A stretch of 59,550 nt of DNA from Escherichia phage BRET: the sequence record MK165087.1, one strand, 5' to 3'. This document shows, in pieces, positions 53,264 through 59,550 of the stretch. Position 1 is the stretch's first letter. Every line of letters begins with the position of its first letter. Below the pieces are notes generated by a model. That model made no database searches. It was not told where the DNA came from and worked only from the letters and a program-made list of their open reading frames with translations. Position numbers and translations under genes: made by a program.

Positions 53264-53539
53264 TCACTCAGCGCGAAGGCCCATCGGGTGAATAGTTTGC
53301 TTCTGAAATTCAGCATACGCTTCAGCGATCAGCTTGTCCCAGTATTCTTTAACTTCCGGATAGTTACTGGAAGTGAATACTACACCATTCCGAGTGTGGA
53401 TCTCGTACTGGCAGCACGTTTCCTCTTCGGTCCACAGATCAAACTCGTGGCGGTGGTACAGGTAGAAGGACTGACGGTTCAACACAACTCGAGCCATTTC
53501 AACGAAAGAATTCTGGTTAGGTTTACGCATGATAATCAC
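53264..53539 (-). CDS. hypothetical protein
   Basis: 91-aa ORF. Confidence 0.4.
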   Translation of the reverse strand: MIIMRKPNQNSFVEMARVVLNRQSFYLYHRHEFDLWTEEETCCQYEIHTRNGVVFTSSNYPEVKEYWDKLIAEAYAEFQKQTIHPMGLRAE

Positions 53540-53721
53540 TCCGGTAAAATTACAGTCACGTTAATATTTGCAATGCGAGCGCACTCGGTGAAACCTTTTA
53601 CATAAGCATCCATTTCGTCATAGGATGCGAAAGTCACGTCCGGGACTGGTCCGTTGTTAATATTCACGCAATATTCGTGTTCGTCCAGGTCAACCCAACA
53701 AGTTAGAACGATAGTTTCCAT
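53536..53721 (-). CDS. hypothetical small protein
   Basis: Internal ATG (METIVLTCW...) of track ORF 53536..53754. Confidence 0.35.
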   Translation of the reverse strand: METIVLTCWVDLDEHEYCVNINNGPVPDVTFASYDEMDAYVKGFTECARIANINVTVILPE

Positions 53722-53799
53722 ATTATTTACCCTCCGTATAATACAGACCCGCAACTATTGGAGCACCGAATACCAAGAACGCTAATAAGTAGAACATAA

Positions 53800-54294
53800 T
53801 TAATTGCCCCCTTTATTGTTGAGCCCGTGGAATTTGCGCCATGCGTAGAATTCAATCGTTGCGTTATTAATATTCCAACTATTAGCTTTCGCAAGGTCAC
53901 GGACGTTACCAATAGTTGGCACACCATTAGGCAACATATTATCCAGAGCGTTCCAAACGTCTGCACATTTACCTTTAATTGGGCGACGGACCCCGTTGCG
54001 CGTTTCGCTGCGCGTTTTACCTTTGACGGGAGCGACCGGAGCTGGTTGTGTGGTCACTTCCACGACAGTTGCTTTATCAGCTTCTACCAGATCGTTAGCT
54101 GCCTTATTAACCGCGCTTTCGCTGTACCAGTAGCGGCCACCGTCTTCGTGCGGTTCCTGGTGAATAAAGCTATTAGCTGTCGCAGTGTCCACATCCAGAA
54201 CCTTTTTTAAGGCACGGCGAGCGTTAGACATAGTGGCGAAGAAGCGAGCGTCTTTTGCTACGCGAGTGATAGTTGCCATTGTGATTATCTCCAT
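53800..54294 (-). CDS. hypothetical protein
   Basis: About 160-aa ORF; start may be 54279. Confidence 0.4.
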   Translation of the reverse strand: MEIITMATITRVAKDARFFATMSNARRALKKVLDVDTATANSFIHQEPHEDGGRYWYSESAVNKAANDLVEADKATVVEVTTQPAPVAPVKGKTRSETRNGVRRPIKGKCADVWNALDNMLPNGVPTIGNVRDLAKANSWNINNATIEFYAWRKFHGLNNKGGN

Positions 54295-54355
54295 GTTGAT
54301 CTAGCGGATTGCTAGTGGGAGCCCACTGTAACAATGGGCAACCATTAACACGCTA

Positions 54356-54661
54356 TTATTGTTGAATAGCCTTAGCTATCATTGCAATAAAGCAGAACAC
54401 AGACCAAAGGCTATTCGCTTGACATACTGGTCGACCGTACATTACGCTATAAGAGCTGACAGTGCCGTTCTCGTTAATGCGAATATATAACGCGGTGCTG
54501 GAATACTTTTCGTTTCCCGGGAGCATTACTAAATACTCGTCGTAATCCCAGTCCCCGTTGACTTTTTCCGCAGTAAGGCCCAGCTGATACAGGCGCTTGC
54601 CAATAATACGTTTGGTGATCATGGACTGGGACATAGAACGCGGTAAGTAGATAATGGACAT
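54356..54661 (-). CDS. hypothetical protein (small early paralog family B)
   Basis: 101-aa ORF with AAGGGAGA RBS; N-terminal SMITKRIIGKR. Confidence 0.45.
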   Translation of the reverse strand: MSIIYLPRSMSQSMITKRIIGKRLYQLGLTAEKVNGDWDYDEYLVMLPGNEKYSSTALYIRINENGTVSSYSVMYGRPVCQANSLWSVFCFIAMIAKAIQQ

Positions 54662-54846
54662 AATGCAATCTCCCTTCGGGTGAAGCGGGCGCGGAACCCG
54701 TGTCCCGCTTTAAAACCCCCTTTACCCCACGCGTTTATAATATGACAGCAGGGTATCAGATGCAACTATTATCTGCATTATTTTAGAACTTTTTTAGTTG
54801 TGTTTCATAATAATAACATCCGGGACTATACGGTAGATGGTGTGCC

Positions 54847-54915
54847 GGAAATACCAGGTGGCGCGAGTGTGCTGAAAATACCAGGTAACAGCACGCGCAG
54901 GAAATACCAGGTAGC
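54847..54915. repeat. iteron-like direct repeats (3 x AAATACCAGGT at 26-bp period)
   Basis: Copies at about 54850, 54876 and 54902 in the intergenic region between divergent operons. Confidence 0.5.
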
Positions 54916-55215
54916 ACATACATAGACAGCACATAGTGGGCAGGTGGATAGTAACAGATGTAATTATACTGGACGGTATAGTATAGTCATGTAATAGATA
55001 ACATACTAATCAAATAAAAAATAATAACGCGTGCAACAATAAACAACGTTACAATAGAGCGCGCGACAGTCACATGACGTAACAATCACCTCACTGACGA
55101 TCACGGGACGTTATAGTAACGCCGCGGGGCGGCTCTTAGATCTCTGCCAAGGATTCATCTTTTGTAGATTATCTCGTCACTAGACACTTTATATCCCCAC
55201 CTCACCTGCCCTATA

Positions 55216-55244
55216 TTGTTCGTATAAAGTTAATTCCGTATATA
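55216..55244 (+). promoter_or_regulatory. candidate sigma70-type early promoter
   Basis: TTGTTC-N17-TATATA upstream of the rightward operon starting at 55418. Confidence 0.25.
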
Positions 55245-55417
55245 AATACTCGAGATCAGGTTTACAAGATTCGGTTTCCTGTATGTGTAACTGATTTGCC
55301 GCACAAGATTTAAAGCACACGAGACAGCTAACTGTGGTTATTAATTGTTGCGGCCGGCTATGTTAATCAACTTGCGTATCCTGTTATAGTTATTCCGTTA
55401 ACGTTAAAGGGGTTTAT

Positions 55418-55783
55418 ATGAACGAGAATATAGTTAAAGCCTGGTCTATCTTACGACCACAGCTGAAAGACGATCGTGTCGCTTTTGTTTTATGTCCTGC
55501 TAATGAATATCGCCGGAAGCTCGAAGAAGTGTTGCGCGAAGATTCTGAGTTCGTTCGCTGTGTGCAACTGTCGCGCGAGTCATCTGTGGTGCAGTTTGAT
55601 CGTTTCCACCTTCGTTTGGTTGCTCATCGCAGAGACTCGTATGAAGACACTGTTATTCGTACGAGCGGCTTCCATTGTGATATTGCCATTCTTGACTGCG
55701 AATTAAGTATTGAGCAGAAACAAGATTTATATAATCTCGCTCGTGAACGTCATGGTGAATTGTTAATTGTGGAAGTGCAATAA
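55418..55783 (+). CDS. hypothetical protein
   Basis: 121-aa ORF with AAAGGGG RBS, first gene of the rightward block. Confidence 0.45.
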   Translation: MNENIVKAWSILRPQLKDDRVAFVLCPANEYRRKLEEVLREDSEFVRCVQLSRESSVVQFDRFHLRLVAHRRDSYEDTVIRTSGFHCDIAILDCELSIEQKQDLYNLARERHGELLIVEVQ

Positions 55784-56121
55784 TGGCCAAAGATATCGTT
55801 ATTCCGAAAATGTATTGTCAGCTCCGTGATGCTTTATTACAGAGCGGTTGGATTATTAGTCATACCGATGTGAATGATACTTATATTGTTCTTATACCAC
55901 CTGAAGGAACGATATCCTGCATTTTGCACTATATGCCCGAAGCGAAAACGGTTTATCCGAACGGGTCATTCCTGCTTCGTTTGCGCTCCGATACATGGAA
56001 GATCCAGACGGATACCTGTGCAATTGACGAGAATACCAGTAAAGAATTTATTCGCAAGCTAACTCAGCTGAATAAAATCTACGAGCATGTTAAATTTGAT
56101 TTGTTTAAGGAAGTGTTCTAA
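55783..56121 (+). CDS. hypothetical protein
   Basis: 112-aa ORF, translationally coupled. Confidence 0.45.
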   Translation: MAKDIVIPKMYCQLRDALLQSGWIISHTDVNDTYIVLIPPEGTISCILHYMPEAKTVYPNGSFLLRLRSDTWKIQTDTCAIDENTSKEFIRKLTQLNKIYEHVKFDLFKEVF

Positions 56122-56561
56122 TGATTACTATCAACGATCCAATCACGCATAAAACTCAGAAAAGCATAATGGCTTGCATCCCTACCTGCCTTGCTATGCT
56201 TCTTGACAAAGACCCTGAGCAGGTATATGACGAGTTCACAAAGGATTATATTCATGGACATATTGATGTTGCTAGTTATCTATATCGATACGGTATCTTT
56301 GCGCAGCCGCATATCACTGCCGGTATGCACCAGATCCGACCTGGGCGCTTGTATCTTGCAACTGTACCTTCTTTGCAGTTACCTGGGCTTTTCCATCAGA
56401 TCATTATTGACGCTCGCTTCGGTGATGTTAAGGTATACGACCCATGTAAAGGTTTGCAAGGGAAACAATACTATTCCTATGACCACGTTGCAGAGGGTAA
56501 CGATCTGGCGTATCCTCTGCGGTCTTTCCTGATTGATTACGAAATTATATTGCCTGGGTGA
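56121..56561 (+). CDS. hypothetical protein, possible Cys/His peptidase-like
   Basis: 146 aa; Cys near N-terminus (MACIPTCLAML) and downstream His (HQIIID); weak. Confidence 0.3.
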   Translation: MITINDPITHKTQKSIMACIPTCLAMLLDKDPEQVYDEFTKDYIHGHIDVASYLYRYGIFAQPHITAGMHQIRPGRLYLATVPSLQLPGLFHQIIIDARFGDVKVYDPCKGLQGKQYYSYDHVAEGNDLAYPLRSFLIDYEIILPG

Positions 56562-56564
56562 TTT

Positions 56565-56918
56565 ATGGGCTTGCAACGTTTTGACAATGCGGAACTCGCG
56601 TGTGAATTTGCAAAGCGTAAGTTCGCTAAAACAGGTACGCCGCGATGCGTACACGCGGCTATTGGGCAAAATGGGGCAAAGTATTGGTACGTTGGTACAG
56701 TAGCTCAGATCAAGCGAAGATTCGCGACTACGCCCGAAATGCGCCGGCTTGGGTCCCCTACACTTGTGCGAAACAGGCAGTTGGATAAAGAGGAAATTTA
56801 TCAATTTCTTAGGAATTACACTGGTAAAGAGAATAGATTTCAGGTTGCAGCGAAAGAGTTCAATATCGGTCTTTCCACTGCTTATAAAATTTATCACATA
56901 TATGGGCGTTTAATATGA
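56565..56918 (+). CDS. hypothetical protein with C-terminal HTH-like segment
   Basis: 117 aa; FQVAAKEFNIGLSTAYKIYH looks like a helix-turn-helix. Confidence 0.4.
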   Translation: MGLQRFDNAELACEFAKRKFAKTGTPRCVHAAIGQNGAKYWYVGTVAQIKRRFATTPEMRRLGSPTLVRNRQLDKEEIYQFLRNYTGKENRFQVAAKEFNIGLSTAYKIYHIYGRLI

Positions 56919-57409
56919 CCGCAATTGCTTATCGTAATGGTATATTGGCTGTAGATCGTCAGGTTACATGGGGTAATATTGCAACAACTACGGATAAAGT
57001 TCATACTGTCAATATTCCAGGGATTGGACTTTGTCTTGTTGCGATGTCTGGTAAACTACGTCCTGTAACTGATATTGTGGATCATCTGAAAACTACGGTT
57101 CGTGGGCGTAAAGAACCTTTCTCGGATTTAAATCCGGATTCCCGTTATGGTATTGCCGTGACGCAGGAACTTGTCGTATATCCTATCTACGGGGATGGGA
57201 AATTAGGTCTACCGGACACTAACGAATTTATTGCGGAAGGTAGCGCGTTTGAGTTCTTGATGGGTGCAATGGCGGGAGGTTGCACCGCCGAAGAGGCCGT
57301 ACAACTGGCGTGCGTATATTGCGACAGTTGTGGTCAAGGGGTTAAGTTCTATGACGTAGCCTATACTCTTAAAGTGGCGCAGTGTAAAATCGAGGAGAAA
57401 CCATTTTGA
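56915..57409 (+). CDS. HslV / proteasome-beta-like Ntn hydrolase
   Basis: N-terminus MTAIAYRNGILAVDRQVTWGN resembles HslV TTIVSVRRNG..GDGQATLGN (Thr1 nucleophile after Met removal); downstream Lys and GG motifs. Confidence 0.5.
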   Translation: MTAIAYRNGILAVDRQVTWGNIATTTDKVHTVNIPGIGLCLVAMSGKLRPVTDIVDHLKTTVRGRKEPFSDLNPDSRYGIAVTQELVVYPIYGDGKLGLPDTNEFIAEGSAFEFLMGAMAGGCTAEEAVQLACVYCDSCGQGVKFYDVAYTLKVAQCKIEEKPF

Positions 57410-57597
57410 AGAAACCTAAGACTGGTCTGTTCCTTTGTGTTGGTGGACCTTTTGACGGTAAGCGTATACGCTTAACAACATCAGATTTGTATCCAAGTTC
57501 CTCCGTTTTCTCTGTTCCATCCTATAAAAATGGTGAGAAGGGGCAATACGTCTGGAATGATGAAATTCGAAACAGTGTAATCTGGAGAACATCGTGA
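57406..57597 (+). CDS. hypothetical protein
   Basis: 63-aa ORF. Confidence 0.35.
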   Translation: MKKPKTGLFLCVGGPFDGKRIRLTTSDLYPSSSVFSVPSYKNGEKGQYVWNDEIRNSVIWRTS

Positions 57598-57821
57598 GTG
57601 ATCCTACAAATGCGCAATTAGCCGCTGCAAGAGTGTATATGCGCGGAGCTGCTGCTGAGATTGATGCTTTGCCTCAATTTGAAAAGTATGTACAGCAACT
57701 CGAAGATAAATTCAAGACTCTTAAAGATCTAGGGGATACGAAAGATGCTATAGCCTTTCTTCTTGCTATCCAATACTTGTCTATGGGGGTTGGTGACAAA
57801 GTATGTTCCTTAGAAGAATAA
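57594..57821 (+). CDS. hypothetical protein
   Basis: 75-aa ORF. Confidence 0.35.
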   Translation: MSDPTNAQLAAARVYMRGAAAEIDALPQFEKYVQQLEDKFKTLKDLGDTKDAIAFLLAIQYLSMGVGDKVCSLEE

Positions 57822-58303
57822 TTGGTATTGTTGCACCTTGCATACCACTTGTCATAATTGTTATTCTAGCCAACTGGGCTTATGACAATGCCATAGAATC
57901 AGCTAGAAAGGAGGGTTTCGATGCCGGTGTGTCGTACCAAAAAGAAACTCAGAAAGCGGTTGATTTCGAGGAGGAGAAACGAAGAGCATATGAGAAAGAC
58001 GTTATCGAACGCCAGTATCAATCTCGCATTGAGTCTTTGGTTGCCGATCTTAATGATTATCGTGCTACTAATGACAGGTTGCACAACGAAATCGCAACCG
58101 TCCGTAAGTACCTCGGCGACGCTACCGGCCCTCAGCCCGACAGCAAGACAACCGCCCAGATCGCCCGTGTGCTCACCGAACTGTATTCGGAAAGCGTCAC
58201 AGAATACAGACAAGTGGCAGAAGAGGCTGAAAAGTATCGTGTTGCCGGCGAGCAGTGCGAACTACAGTATGATGCAATGCGAAATGCGCGTAAAGAACGG
58301 TGA
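57803..58303 (+). CDS. i-spanin (Rz-like)
   Basis: N-terminal transmembrane helix then coiled-coil periplasmic domain; an overlapping lipoprotein ORF sits in another frame. Confidence 0.55.
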   Translation: MFLRRIIGIVAPCIPLVIIVILANWAYDNAIESARKEGFDAGVSYQKETQKAVDFEEEKRRAYEKDVIERQYQSRIESLVADLNDYRATNDRLHNEIATVRKYLGDATGPQPDSKTTAQIARVLTELYSESVTEYRQVAEEAEKYRVAGEQCELQYDAMRNARKER

Positions 58304-58334
58304 TAAACTGCAAAGTCCTTGCCGGGTTGCGTAA
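57990..58334 (+). CDS. o-spanin (Rz1-like lipoprotein)
   Basis: MRKTLSNASINLALSLWLPILMIIVLLMTGC signal with lipobox Cys, Pro-rich mature part; overlaps and extends past the i-spanin; start may be 58053. Confidence 0.45.
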   Translation: MRKTLSNASINLALSLWLPILMIIVLLMTGCTTKSQPSVSTSATLPALSPTARQPPRSPVCSPNCIRKASQNTDKWQKRLKSIVLPASSANYSMMQCEMRVKNGDKLQSPCRVA

Positions 58335-58425
58335 CTAAACGTTCAATCTTAATCGCGCATAATTGATTGTGTGCGTGTGATAATTCAACTATGCTCTATT
58401 CGGTTTAACTGAATGGAGCTTTTTT

Positions 58426-58860
58426 ATGACTGTGCAACCACGAGGTATCCGGAATAACAATCCGGGAAATATTCGTTGGGGTGATAACTGGAAAGGTCTT
58501 GTTCCTGAAAACAAACGGACTGACCGTTCTTTTTGTCAATTTATCGATGTAAAATATGGTATTCGCGCCATTGCGCGTATTTTACTAAACTACCGCAACC
58601 GCGAAGGGATGAAGCGTGTCGGAAATAAAGGGATTGACACTGTACGGGAAATTATTTCGCGCTGGGCTCCGCCGAATGAAAATAACACTGAAGCCTATAT
58701 TCAATCTGTGTCTAAGGCTTGTGGTGTTGGTGCAGAACAGCCGATTTCAGTGACCGATGATAAAATCATGCTTGCGATCGTGAAAGCGATCATCAAACAT
58801 GAGAACGGTGTGCAACCTTATTCTGATGAAGATTTGCTCGCGGGTATCCATATGGCATAG
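58426..58860 (+). CDS. putative endolysin (by position only)
   Basis: 144-aa soluble protein between spanins and holin-like genes; no catalytic motif recognised. Confidence 0.35.
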   Translation: MTVQPRGIRNNNPGNIRWGDNWKGLVPENKRTDRSFCQFIDVKYGIRAIARILLNYRNREGMKRVGNKGIDTVREIISRWAPPNENNTEAYIQSVSKACGVGAEQPISVTDDKIMLAIVKAIIKHENGVQPYSDEDLLAGIHMA

Positions 58861-58873
58861 TAAGAGGTTATAA

Positions 58874-59182
58874 GTGTCGCCGAACTGGGATTGGAATATA
58901 GTTTTTATTCTGACTGCCATTGCAATGGTAGGGGGTTCCCTTGGCTACGCTGCAAGAACCCATGATGCTAAAGAAAGGTTCAGACTCAGCGTCTTCATTC
59001 AAGAGGGTGCTTTTTCTGCATTCTTTGGTTTCTTGATAGGTGTAATTAACGTGGAACATGGTGTCTCACTGGGCCTCAGTGGGGCGTTCATAGGCGTGTT
59101 ATCTTGGTCAGGATCAAGAACCATGCTGAAGTTTCTACGGAGAAAAACAGAAGCATGTGACCGAGAAAGAGAAAGAGGTTAG
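58874..59182 (+). CDS. putative holin
   Basis: 102 aa with 2-3 predicted transmembrane helices and a charged C-terminus; AAGAGG RBS before a GTG start. Confidence 0.5.
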   Translation: MSPNWDWNIVFILTAIAMVGGSLGYAARTHDAKERFRLSVFIQEGAFSAFFGFLIGVINVEHGVSLGLSGAFIGVLSWSGSRTMLKFLRRKTEACDRERERG

Positions 59183-59184
59183 TT

Positions 59185-59421
59185 ATGCGTCACTTCATCG
59201 ACGATCTTCTTATATTGTGTAAGAAACCGCGATTGCTTTTCATTTATATGATGATTGGACTTGCACAAATTGGAGTCAGTGCTATCGCCATTGATCAGAT
59301 GCACAAGAGACACAGGGCAAACCTGCAACCTTCAAAACCACCTGTTTATGTGGTCAATAAGGTTGAACAAATCAAACAAGACATCCGGGAGATAACGTAC
59401 ATTCCTAAAGCGGAAATGTAG
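59185..59421 (+). CDS. putative holin / antiholin-like membrane protein
   Basis: 78 aa with one transmembrane helix; AGAGG RBS. Confidence 0.4.
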   Translation: MRHFIDDLLILCKKPRLLFIYMMIGLAQIGVSAIAIDQMHKRHRANLQPSKPPVYVVNKVEQIKQDIREITYIPKAEM

Positions 59422-59437
59422 ATTGGTTTATAAGTAA

Positions 59438-59475
59438 AGCCCGCTCCTTGAATTTATATCGAGCGGGCTTTTTAT
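59438..59475 (+). terminator. rho-independent terminator
   Basis: Perfect 10-bp stem AAGCCCGCTC / GAGCGGGCTT followed by TTTTTATT. Confidence 0.6.
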
Positions 59476-59493
59476 TGACATTTGCTATAACCC

Positions 59494-59522
59494 TTGCAAT
59501 TAATTAGTCCACCGCTTATATT
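59494..59522 (+). promoter_or_regulatory. candidate sigma70-type promoter upstream of the terminase genes
   Basis: TTGCAA-N17-TATATT, then AGGAG close to the window end. Confidence 0.35.
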
Positions 59523-59550
59523 CGTGTCAAGAATCGACAGGAGTAACGTT

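What the first reader, a model, noticed from the sequence alone, without database searches (positions are those of the whole stretch)
56915..57409. Phage-encoded HslV / proteasome-beta-like threonine peptidase without a cognate ATPase
The N-terminus MTAIAYRNG...DRQVTWGN aligns by eye with the HslV N-terminal catalytic segment, including the Thr that becomes residue 1 after Met removal. No HslU-like ATPase is encoded nearby, so the protein might pair with host HslU and alter host proteolysis, or act alone. It lies in the early rightward operon, consistent with a host-takeover role.
Basis: partly seen in the sequence, partly recalled or inferred. Interest (0 to 1): 0.5.

Follow-up and report, generated by a model that had tools for sequence, protein, structure and literature searches.

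The report
Phage proteasome-like threonine hydrolase (PPH class)
This coliphage gene really does encode a miniature relative of the bacterial HslV/proteasome protease with an intact active site and no partner ATPase, but the protein class is already described and annotated in sister phages, and what it cleaves is still unknown.

The parts
56915..57409 (+). CDS of the 164-aa proteasome-like (PPH-class) Ntn hydrolase, stop codon included
56915..56920 (+). Met1-Thr2 codons. Thr2 is the predicted N-terminal nucleophile (equivalent to Thr1) once the initiator Met is removed. There is no propeptide. The ATG overlaps the upstream stop (ATGA).
   Evidence: Family alignment has M1 in 120/120 and Thr (115) or Ser (5) at position 2 in 120/120. 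Representative hits nearly all match from residue 1. Met removal by host MetAP is an inference.
56954..56956 (+). Asp14 codon (GAT), equivalent to Asp17 of HslV and the 20S beta subunit
   Evidence: Co-alignment of the window protein and E. coli HslV to the family HMM. Asp in 116/120 members.
56996..56998 (+). Lys28 codon (AAA), equivalent to catalytic Lys33
   Evidence: HMM co-alignment. Lys in 120/120 members.
57050..57052 (+). Gly46 codon (GGT), equivalent to the oxyanion-hole Gly47 in 20S numbering (Gly48 in E. coli HslV by this alignment)
   Evidence: Alignments to beta5i and HslV. Gly in 119/120 members.
57089..57142 (+). Residues 59-76: an 18-residue coil where HslV has helix H2 and its Arg86/Arg89/Lys90 end. 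This is the diagnostic deletion of the PPH class.
   Evidence: DSSP of the model shows a single helix at 48-58, then coil until strand 77-83. HslV carries insertions here relative to the family HMM. The segment from Gly46 to Ile80 is 34 residues here and a median of 33 in the family, against 46 in E. coli HslV.
57239..57247 (+). Gly109-Ser110-Ala111 codons, equivalent to Gly128-Ser129-Gly130 of 20S beta (Gly123-Ser124-Gly125 of E. coli HslV)
   Evidence: hhalign and HMM alignments. Gly109 in 120/120 and Ser110 in 87/120 members.
55418..56918 (+). Four co-directional, tightly packed upstream genes of unknown function (55418..55783, 55783..56121, 56121..56561, 56565..56918). The last is translationally coupled to the hydrolase gene.
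   Evidence: ORFs. PHROGs 17838, 21152, 4049 and 17085, all of unknown function. No significant Pfam hits.
57406..58303 (+). Downstream genes of the same run: two small ORFs (57406..57597, 57594..57821) and the Rz-like spanin (57803..58303)
   Evidence: ORFs. PHROG 312 Rz-like spanin at E=1.2e-39.
58393..58419 (+). Terminator-like hairpin (12-bp stem plus T-run) that closes the run. It lies immediately 5' of the endolysin start at 58426.
   Evidence: Scan. A hairpin with the same architecture but a different sequence lies at the same place in Klebsiella phage vB_Kpn2-P2.

Best explanation
The gene encodes a compact, stand-alone member of the proteasome-like (MEROPS T1-type) Ntn-hydrolase superfamily. 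[quoted passage not shown] Shown here: it has the alpha-beta-beta-alpha proteasome fold; Thr sits directly after the initiator Met; the Asp17, Lys33, Gly47 and Ser129 equivalents are present and almost invariant in more than 100 diverse relatives; helix H2 is missing; there is no propeptide; and no unfoldase gene occurs in this genome or next to relatives elsewhere. Inferred: host methionine aminopeptidase removes Met1, as it does for E. coli HslV (MTT...), which exposes the Thr amino group. The enzyme then acts as an N-terminal-threonine hydrolase, most probably a peptidase, without HslU or any dedicated AAA+ partner, on a specific host or phage substrate that is still unknown. It is an accessory gene. 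It is inherited vertically within Queuovirinae at a fixed position upstream of the lysis cassette, and it is scattered in different contexts in unrelated phages and prophages.
Against: No biochemical data exist for any PPH. The related stand-alone BPH has a perfect active site yet was inert on all standard substrates (PMC5777263), so an intact catalytic set does not prove protease activity. Proteasome-family active sites usually need ring assembly, and I could not test the oligomeric state. The Asp166 equivalent is not conserved in the family (D137: Asp in only 16/120). The protein is 164 aa rather than about 140, with an extra loop and a poorly conserved C-terminal helix, and I could not compare it directly with the PPH type sequence WP_042125023.1. 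All known hosts of these phages do have HslU, so use of the host ATPase is not excluded. In the deposited phage 9g genome the gene is frameshifted, so it may be dispensable.
Confidence: 0.55

Rival explanations
1. One reading: the phage protein assembles into HslV-like rings, docks onto the host HslU hexamer, and so redirects or hijacks ATP-dependent proteolysis in the infected cell.
For: HslV is the top structural hit. The phage encodes no ATPase of its own. E. coli, the host, has hslVU. HslV on its own is a very weak peptidase (established knowledge).
Against: Helix H2 is missing, together with the Arg86/Arg89/Lys90 cluster at its end. Those residues are needed for HslV activity, and HslU binding remodels them (PMC5777263). 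By the HMM alignment, the positions I recall as contacting the HslU C-terminal tail (Lys28, Arg35; from memory, not verified here) correspond to Ala23 and His30. BPH, a closer HslV descendant that keeps both helices, has lost the HslU interface and did not pull down HslU. The protein fails every HslV-specific model.
Confidence: 0.12
2. It is a morphogenesis- or lysis-associated processing protease that trims a phage structural, packaging or lysis protein. Its position next to those modules would reflect that role.
For: In every Queuovirinae genome examined, the gene lies 1-3 genes upstream of the spanin/endolysin/holin cassette and the terminase genes. In 28 of 80 unrelated viral loci a TerL or portal gene lies within 5 kb, sometimes directly adjacent. 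No prohead protease is annotated in this genome.
Against: A rate of 28/80 is close to what a 10-kb window gives by chance in 40-60-kb genomes. There is no conserved immediate neighbour. In myovirus PEi21 the gene sits among tail genes in a separate small operon. The capsid protein is Gp13-like (SPP1 type) and has a separate scaffolding protein, an arrangement that needs no protease in SPP1 (plus established knowledge). Phage 9g may carry a frameshifted copy and still make virions.
Confidence: 0.15
3. It is not a protease but a sequence-specific transpeptidase/ligase (connectase-like), or an amidase acting on a non-protein substrate. It would work as a monomer or small oligomer rather than a barrel.
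Confidence: 0.13
4. It is a catalytically irrelevant structural mimic, for example a decoy that poisons host HslV rings or titrates HslU.
For: Stand-alone relatives such as BPH show no activity in vitro. The gene may be dispensable.
Against: Near-absolute conservation of the nucleophile, Asp, Lys and the oxyanion Gly across more than 100 diverse members at about 24% mean column identity is hard to explain without catalysis. The HslV-specific surface elements are missing.
Confidence: 0.04

Closest known systems
[quoted passage not shown]
   Same: It has the proteasome-like beta-sandwich with the Thr1/Asp17/Lys33/Gly47 set. It has no propeptide. It lacks helix H2, a feature the paper gives as unique to PPH/RPC. 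It is compact. It is encoded by tailed phages and by prophage-like regions of Proteobacteria. Its nearest characterised relatives are HslV and BPH.
   Different: It is 164 aa rather than about 140. The Nonagvirus clade carries a longer loop after H1, with an invariant Arg77-Tyr78-Gly79, and an extra, poorly conserved C-terminal helix at 148-160. I could not compare it directly with the PPH type sequence.
HslV (ClpQ), the peptidase of the bacterial HslVU ATP-dependent protease
   Different: There is no H2 helix or Arg86/Arg89/Lys90 region. There is no adjacent or genome-encoded HslU. The second Gly of both Gly-Gly motifs is lost. It does not reach Pfam PF00227 or any NCBIfam HslV model. Pairwise similarity is not significant.
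BPH (betaproteobacterial proteasome homolog), a stand-alone HslV descendant
   Different: BPH keeps H1 and H2 and has a long acidic pore loop. It forms 14-mers and is a cellular protein in stress-related operons, not a phage protein.
Orphan 'HslV-like' genes of jumbo phages (e.g. Salmonella phage pSal-SNUABM-04 ORF1/116; Erwinia phage RAY gp116)
   Same: These are phage-encoded proteasome/HslV-family proteins with no HslU in the genome, and the authors of pSal-SNUABM-04 noted that explicitly.
   Different: They are longer proteins (about 170-280 aa in the BFVD hits) from a different phage lineage. They share only the fold with the window protein, at 11-26% identity.

Membership tests
Proteasome-like Ntn hydrolases (MEROPS T1 / Pfam PF00227 superfamily) | Four-layer alpha-beta-beta-alpha Ntn fold most similar to proteasome beta/HslV | tested here: met
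Proteasome-like Ntn hydrolases (MEROPS T1 / Pfam PF00227 superfamily) | N-terminal Thr/Ser nucleophile with Asp17, Lys33, Gly47 and Ser129 | tested here: met
   T2, D14, K28, G46 and S110 align to these positions and are conserved in 120, 116, 120, 119 and 87 of 120 members.
Proteasome-like Ntn hydrolases (MEROPS T1 / Pfam PF00227 superfamily) | Significant match to the family's sequence model | tested here: inconclusive
   The window protein itself has no PF00227 hit. However, 41/120 of its relatives do (best 2.1e-10), and the family profile hits HslV at E=1.1e-10. The link is transitive.
HslV (ClpQ) sensu stricto | Match to HslV-specific models (NCBIfam) or significant pairwise similarity to HslV | tested here: not met
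   NCBIfam gives 0 families. phmmer of E. coli HslV against the ORF gives E=6.3.
HslV (ClpQ) sensu stricto | Helix pair H1+H2 with the Arg86/Arg89/Lys90 cluster at the pore | tested here: not met
   The model has a single helix at 48-58 followed by an 18-residue coil. HslV has insertions here relative to the family HMM. The importance of the cluster is taken from PMC5777263.
HslV (ClpQ) sensu stricto | Encoded with its cognate AAA+ ATPase HslU (hslVU operon) | tested here: not met
   There is no HslU homolog in the whole window (best E=1.2) or in 80 related viral loci (best E=0.02). The E. coli hslVU arrangement served as the reference.
HslV (ClpQ) sensu stricto | Dodecameric double hexamer; activity stimulated by HslU and ATP | not testable with these tools
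   This needs multimer modelling or biochemistry.
PPH (Fuchs et al. 2021) | Lacks helix H2 while retaining H1, H3 and H4 | tested here: met
   DSSP shows H48-58, H112-120 and H125-135, with no second helix before strand 77-83. The criterion comes from PMC8665760.
PPH (Fuchs et al. 2021) | No propeptide; nucleophile directly after Met1 | tested here: met
   The MT start is seen in the window protein, and M1 is invariant with T/S at position 2 in 120/120 members.
PPH (Fuchs et al. 2021) | Compact, about 140 residues, without C-terminal S12/H5 elements | tested here: inconclusive
   The family median is 150 aa, but the window protein is 164 aa with an additional C-terminal helix at 148-160. That helix has lower confidence and is not conserved.
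PPH (Fuchs et al. 2021) | Found in tailed phages and prophage regions, mainly of Proteobacteria | tested here: met
   There are 76 phage records, 297 or more IMG/VR stretches, and 50 bacterial genome loci, mostly alpha-proteobacteria and Pseudomonas.
PPH (Fuchs et al. 2021) | Clusters with the PPH type sequence WP_042125023.1 in sequence space | not testable with these tools
   The type sequence and the authors' alignments are not in the held text or supplement.

The most novel reading that the evidence does not exclude
PPH enzymes, this one included, are not barrel-shaped bulk proteases. They would be unfoldase-independent, sequence-specific N-terminal-threonine peptidases or transpeptidases (connectase-like in logic) that phages use to cut or ligate one particular host or phage protein, for example a defence or stress-response factor. 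That would be the first defined biological role for a viral proteasome homolog.
Probability: 0.2. Interest if true: 0.6.

Novelty: already known. Interest (0 to 1): 0.3.

Why it matters
Proteasome-family enzymes are textbook self-compartmentalising proteases that depend on AAA+ unfoldases. A minimal version carried by thousands of phage lineages (3,702 clusters at 50% identity), with a perfectly conserved active site and no ATPase, suggests either an unrecognised way of using the host's unfoldases or a partner-free activity. Because this copy sits in a small, genetically tractable E. coli K-12 phage (the window is probably phage BRET; close relatives are in the BASEL collection), it is a convenient entry point for finding the first substrate of the PPH class. 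As a sequence finding, however, it adds nothing beyond existing annotation and the 2021 survey.

Tried and rejected
(1) Direct family assignment failed. Pfam, NCBIfam, PADLOC and single-sequence PDB searches of the protein returned nothing significant. hhalign of the shallow 21-sequence alignment against one HslV sequence aligned only the C-terminal half, at 16% probability. A 120-member alignment from the exhaustive search was needed.

(2) I looked for a conserved partner.
- The search for related loci with the broad alignment failed because no stretch was conserved enough, so I used a 9-member sub-alignment.
- Neighbour clustering over 80 loci gave no recurrent immediate neighbour and no unfoldase.
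- The upstream 117-aa ORF is not related to the upstream ORF in phage PEi21 (E=24) and is only marginally related to its positional ortholog in Kpn2-P2 (E=0.038).
- None of the nine window neighbours recurs in 130 other loci.

(3) The 'late transcriptional activator' label on the upstream neighbour rests on a weak, partial PHROG 532 hit (E=1.9e-4), so I did not use it as timing evidence.

(4) I could not corroborate the 'papain-like cysteine protease' label on ORF 56121..56561 with Pfam or PDB sequence searches.

(5) Cluster look-ups to obtain public names or accessions for typical members returned only unnamed metagenomic singletons.

(6) The AFDB50 fold library was unavailable.

(7) Literature searches for experimental work on PPH, for Nonagvirus expression data, or for a citable list of HslU-contacting HslV residues found nothing usable.

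(8) Sigma-70 promoter matches in 53500-59550 are not clearly above shuffled expectation (19 against 13.4 +/- 3.3), so I make no promoter call.

Full report
**1. What is there**

The window is an almost complete genome of a Nonagvirus (Queuovirinae, 9g/JenK1-like). It is 92-97% identical in nucleotide sequence to 17 deposited phages over 55400-58900. Its length of 59,550 bp equals that reported for E. coli phage BRET (PMC6357644).

Its ATG overlaps the stop of the upstream ORF (ATGA). Its stop overlaps the TTG start of the downstream ORF (TTGA). It is therefore embedded in a tightly coupled gene run.

The ORF is conserved at 45-93% identity in 29 protein clusters. tblastn finds it in 76 phage records. 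It evolves under purifying selection, with dN/dS of 0.045 against JenK1 and 0.19 against ESCO3. It is a real gene.

**2. Is it HslV-like?**

- phmmer of authentic E. coli HslV (fetched) against the ORF gives E=6.3.
- Pfam, NCBIfam and a single-sequence PDB search find nothing.
- A shallow 21-sequence profile gave only weak hits (E 0.02-0.9). Eight of the 11, though, were proteasome beta or HslV chains, aligned on the N-terminal segment.

Three independent lines then settle it.

(a) PHROGs places the protein in phrog_1040, 'peptidase HslV family', at E=9.6e-35.

(b) An exhaustive profile search finds 3,702 representative clusters (349 at E<=1e-10). Most are 140-155 aa and match from residue 1. 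A 120-member alignment of these hits 201 PDB chains at E<=0.01, with T. maritima HslV best at E=1.1e-10. Of its 120 members, 41 individually match Pfam Proteasome PF00227.

**3. Active site**

I aligned the window protein and E. coli HslV to the same family HMM, and I used the beta5i alignment. The mapping is:

| Window residue | HslV / 20S equivalent |
|---|---|
| T2 | Thr1 |
| D14 | Asp17 |
| K28 | Lys33 |
| G46 | Gly47 in 20S numbering (Gly48 in E. coli HslV) |
| G109-S110 | Gly128-Ser129 (Gly123-Ser124 in HslV) |
| D137, C139, G140 | Asp166, Ser169, Gly170 |

Across the 120 members the nucleophile is Thr in 115 and Ser in 5. Asp is present in 116, Lys in 120, the oxyanion Gly in 119, Gly128 in 120 and Ser129 in 87. 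The Asp166 position is not conserved.

Every member starts M-T/S, so there is no propeptide. I infer that the nucleophile is exposed by removal of the initiator Met by host methionine aminopeptidase. The same happens for E. coli HslV, whose gene also encodes Met/Val-Thr-Thr.

**4. Why it is not an HslV proper**

The model has a single helix (48-58) after strand S4, followed by an 18-residue coil, where HslV has the H1/H2 pair. In the HMM co-alignment, HslV carries about 17 inserted residues here. The Gly47-to-S5 segment is 34 residues here and a median of 33 across the family, against 46 in E. coli HslV.

The missing region includes the Arg86/Arg89/Lys90 cluster. That cluster is needed for HslV activity and is remodelled when HslU binds (PMC5777263).

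The whole window encodes no HslU-like protein: the best E is 1.2 over 431 six-frame ORFs. Walker A motifs in genuine genes occur only in terminase large subunit and the Sak4-like protein. The PHROG-based annotation of the sister genome JenK1 lists no AAA+ unfoldase.

**5. What it is**

[quoted passage not shown] PPH is about 140 residues. It is found in Caudovirales and in prophage regions of their hosts. It has no propeptide. Together with RPC, it is the only family that lacks helix H2. It radiates from the HslV/BPH group.

The window protein meets the diagnostic features I could test:
- It lacks H2 and has no propeptide.
- It carries the catalytic triad plus Gly47.
- HslV and BPH are its nearest characterised relatives.
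- It occurs in phages and prophages. A scan of bacterial genomes with typical short members returned 50 loci, mostly alpha-proteobacteria and Pseudomonas.

It is somewhat longer, at 164 aa. The Nonagvirus clade has a longer post-H1 loop with an invariant Arg77-Tyr78-Gly79, and a poorly conserved C-terminal helix. I could not compare it directly with the PPH type sequence. I therefore file it as a PPH-class proteasome homolog with high but not complete confidence.

**6. Context and timing**

On the + strand, genes run from 55418 through four unknown ORFs, the hydrolase gene, two small ORFs and the Rz-like spanin, which ends at 58303. A strong terminator-like hairpin (58393-58419; 12-bp stem plus T-run) follows. 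It lies immediately 5' of the endolysin start, and holin comes next. Around the circular permutation come terminase, portal and the structural genes.

This order is conserved in Seuratvirus (CAjan, yong3), in Klebsiella relatives and in a 51%-identical metagenomic relative. In the Klebsiella phage, a hairpin of different sequence but identical architecture occupies the same position.

Nothing here shows that the run is 'early':
- Sigma-70-like promoter matches are not clearly above shuffled expectation.
- The 'late transcriptional activator' label on the upstream gene's ortholog rests on a weak partial hit.
- I found no expression data.

Outside Queuovirinae the context differs. In myovirus PEi21 the gene sits between tail genes. 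Across 80 diverse IMG/VR loci, no gene family is the immediate neighbour in more than 4 of 66 loci, no HslU-like protein occurs, and TerL or portal lies within 5 kb in 28 of 80 loci, roughly the chance level. None of the nine window neighbours recurs in 130 other loci. The enzyme therefore has no conserved genetic partner.

**7. Mechanism**

Best supported: a stand-alone N-terminal-threonine hydrolase, most probably a peptidase. Host MetAP would mature it, and it would act without HslU on a specific, still unknown target. It is a non-core accessory function.

Shown: the fold, the catalytic residues and their conservation, the loss of H2, and the absence of any partner gene.

Inferred: Met removal, actual hydrolytic activity, independence from host HslU, and substrate specificity.

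Caveats:
- BPH has a perfect active site yet was inert in vitro and pulled down no partner.
- Proteasome-type sites normally require ring assembly, which I could not model.
- The deposited phage 9g genome has a 1-nt deletion that frameshifts the gene after codon ~58. This is either a homopolymer sequencing error or a sign that the gene is dispensable.

Rivals, with my estimates: host-HslU-dependent protease, about 0.12; morphogenesis or lysis processing protease, about 0.15; connectase-like ligase or non-peptide amidase, about 0.13; inert decoy, about 0.04.

**8. Novelty and verdict**

The 'HslV-like Ntn threonine peptidase without ATPase' reading is essentially right at superfamily level.

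It is already known, however. Orthologs in JenK1, JenP1, JenP2, SE1, 9g, CAjan and others carry the RefSeq product name 'peptidase HslV family', and ESCO3 calls it 'proteasome subunit alpha type-2'. The class was described as PPH in 2021. Orphan HslV-like genes without HslU have been noted in jumbo phages. BFVD holds 40 or more viral representatives of the fold.

What remains open, and moderately interesting, is the function of the whole PPH class, for which no experiment has been published in the searched literature. Interest is 0.3; novelty is 'already known'.

Noticed in passing
window ~57088 (codon ~58 of the ORF); L140 (phage 9g NC_024146.1) 601-1094: In the deposited genome of the type phage 9g, the ortholog has a 1-nt deletion in CATCTGAAAAC (the G is missing). 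The gene is frameshifted, and RefSeq/UniProt (X2KU94) hold only the C-terminal 83 aa, without the catalytic Thr, Asp and Lys. This is either a homopolymer sequencing error or evidence that the gene is dispensable in the laboratory.
   Followed up: partly
window 58393-58419 (+), just upstream of the endolysin start at 58426; L006 5497-5523: A strong hairpin (12-bp stem, 3-nt loop) followed by TTTTTT lies directly before the endolysin ATG. The Shine-Dalgarno-like GGAG lies in its 3' arm. Klebsiella phage vB_Kpn2-P2 has a hairpin of different sequence but the same architecture (11 bp, TTTTT, ATG) at the same spot. It could be an intrinsic terminator separating spanin from endolysin/holin, or a structure that masks the endolysin ribosome-binding site.
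   Followed up: partly
window 56121-56561 (+): This 146-aa ORF (phrog_4049, unknown function) lies two genes upstream. It is annotated 'papain-like cysteine protease AvrRpt2' in phage ESCO3 and 'cysteine protease' in CSP1C. By eye it has a Q13-x5-C19 ... H92 pattern reminiscent of C39/C70 peptidases. Pfam, PADLOC and PDB sequence searches give no support. It is conserved at this position in Nonagvirus, Klebsiella relatives and Seuratvirus, but it does not co-occur with PPH genes elsewhere.
   Followed up: partly
window 56565-56918 (+): This 117-aa ORF is translationally coupled to the hydrolase gene and has a C-terminal helix-turn-helix-like segment (weak Pfam HTH_7 hit, E=0.086). Its positional ortholog in Klebsiella phage vB_Kpn2-P2 is labelled 'late transcriptional activator', but only on a weak partial PHROG 532 hit (E=1.9e-4).
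   Followed up: partly
whole window, 1-59550: The window starts at the small terminase gene and is 59,550 bp long, the length published for E. coli siphophage BRET (PMC6357644). It looks like a complete Nonagvirus genome carrying the archaeosine/7-deazaguanine DNA-modification gene cluster on the minus strand (about 27-34 kb, by synteny with JenK1).
   Followed up: no
L012 2332-3522 (-) and three other IMG/VR loci (neighbour cluster 14): A 397-aa Walker-A protein that looks by eye like a MoxR/AAA_5-type ATPase lies about 2.4 kb upstream, on the opposite strand, of the PPH gene in 4 of 80 viral loci. That is too rare and too loosely placed to count as a partner. It is the only recurrent non-terminase P-loop neighbour seen.
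   Followed up: no
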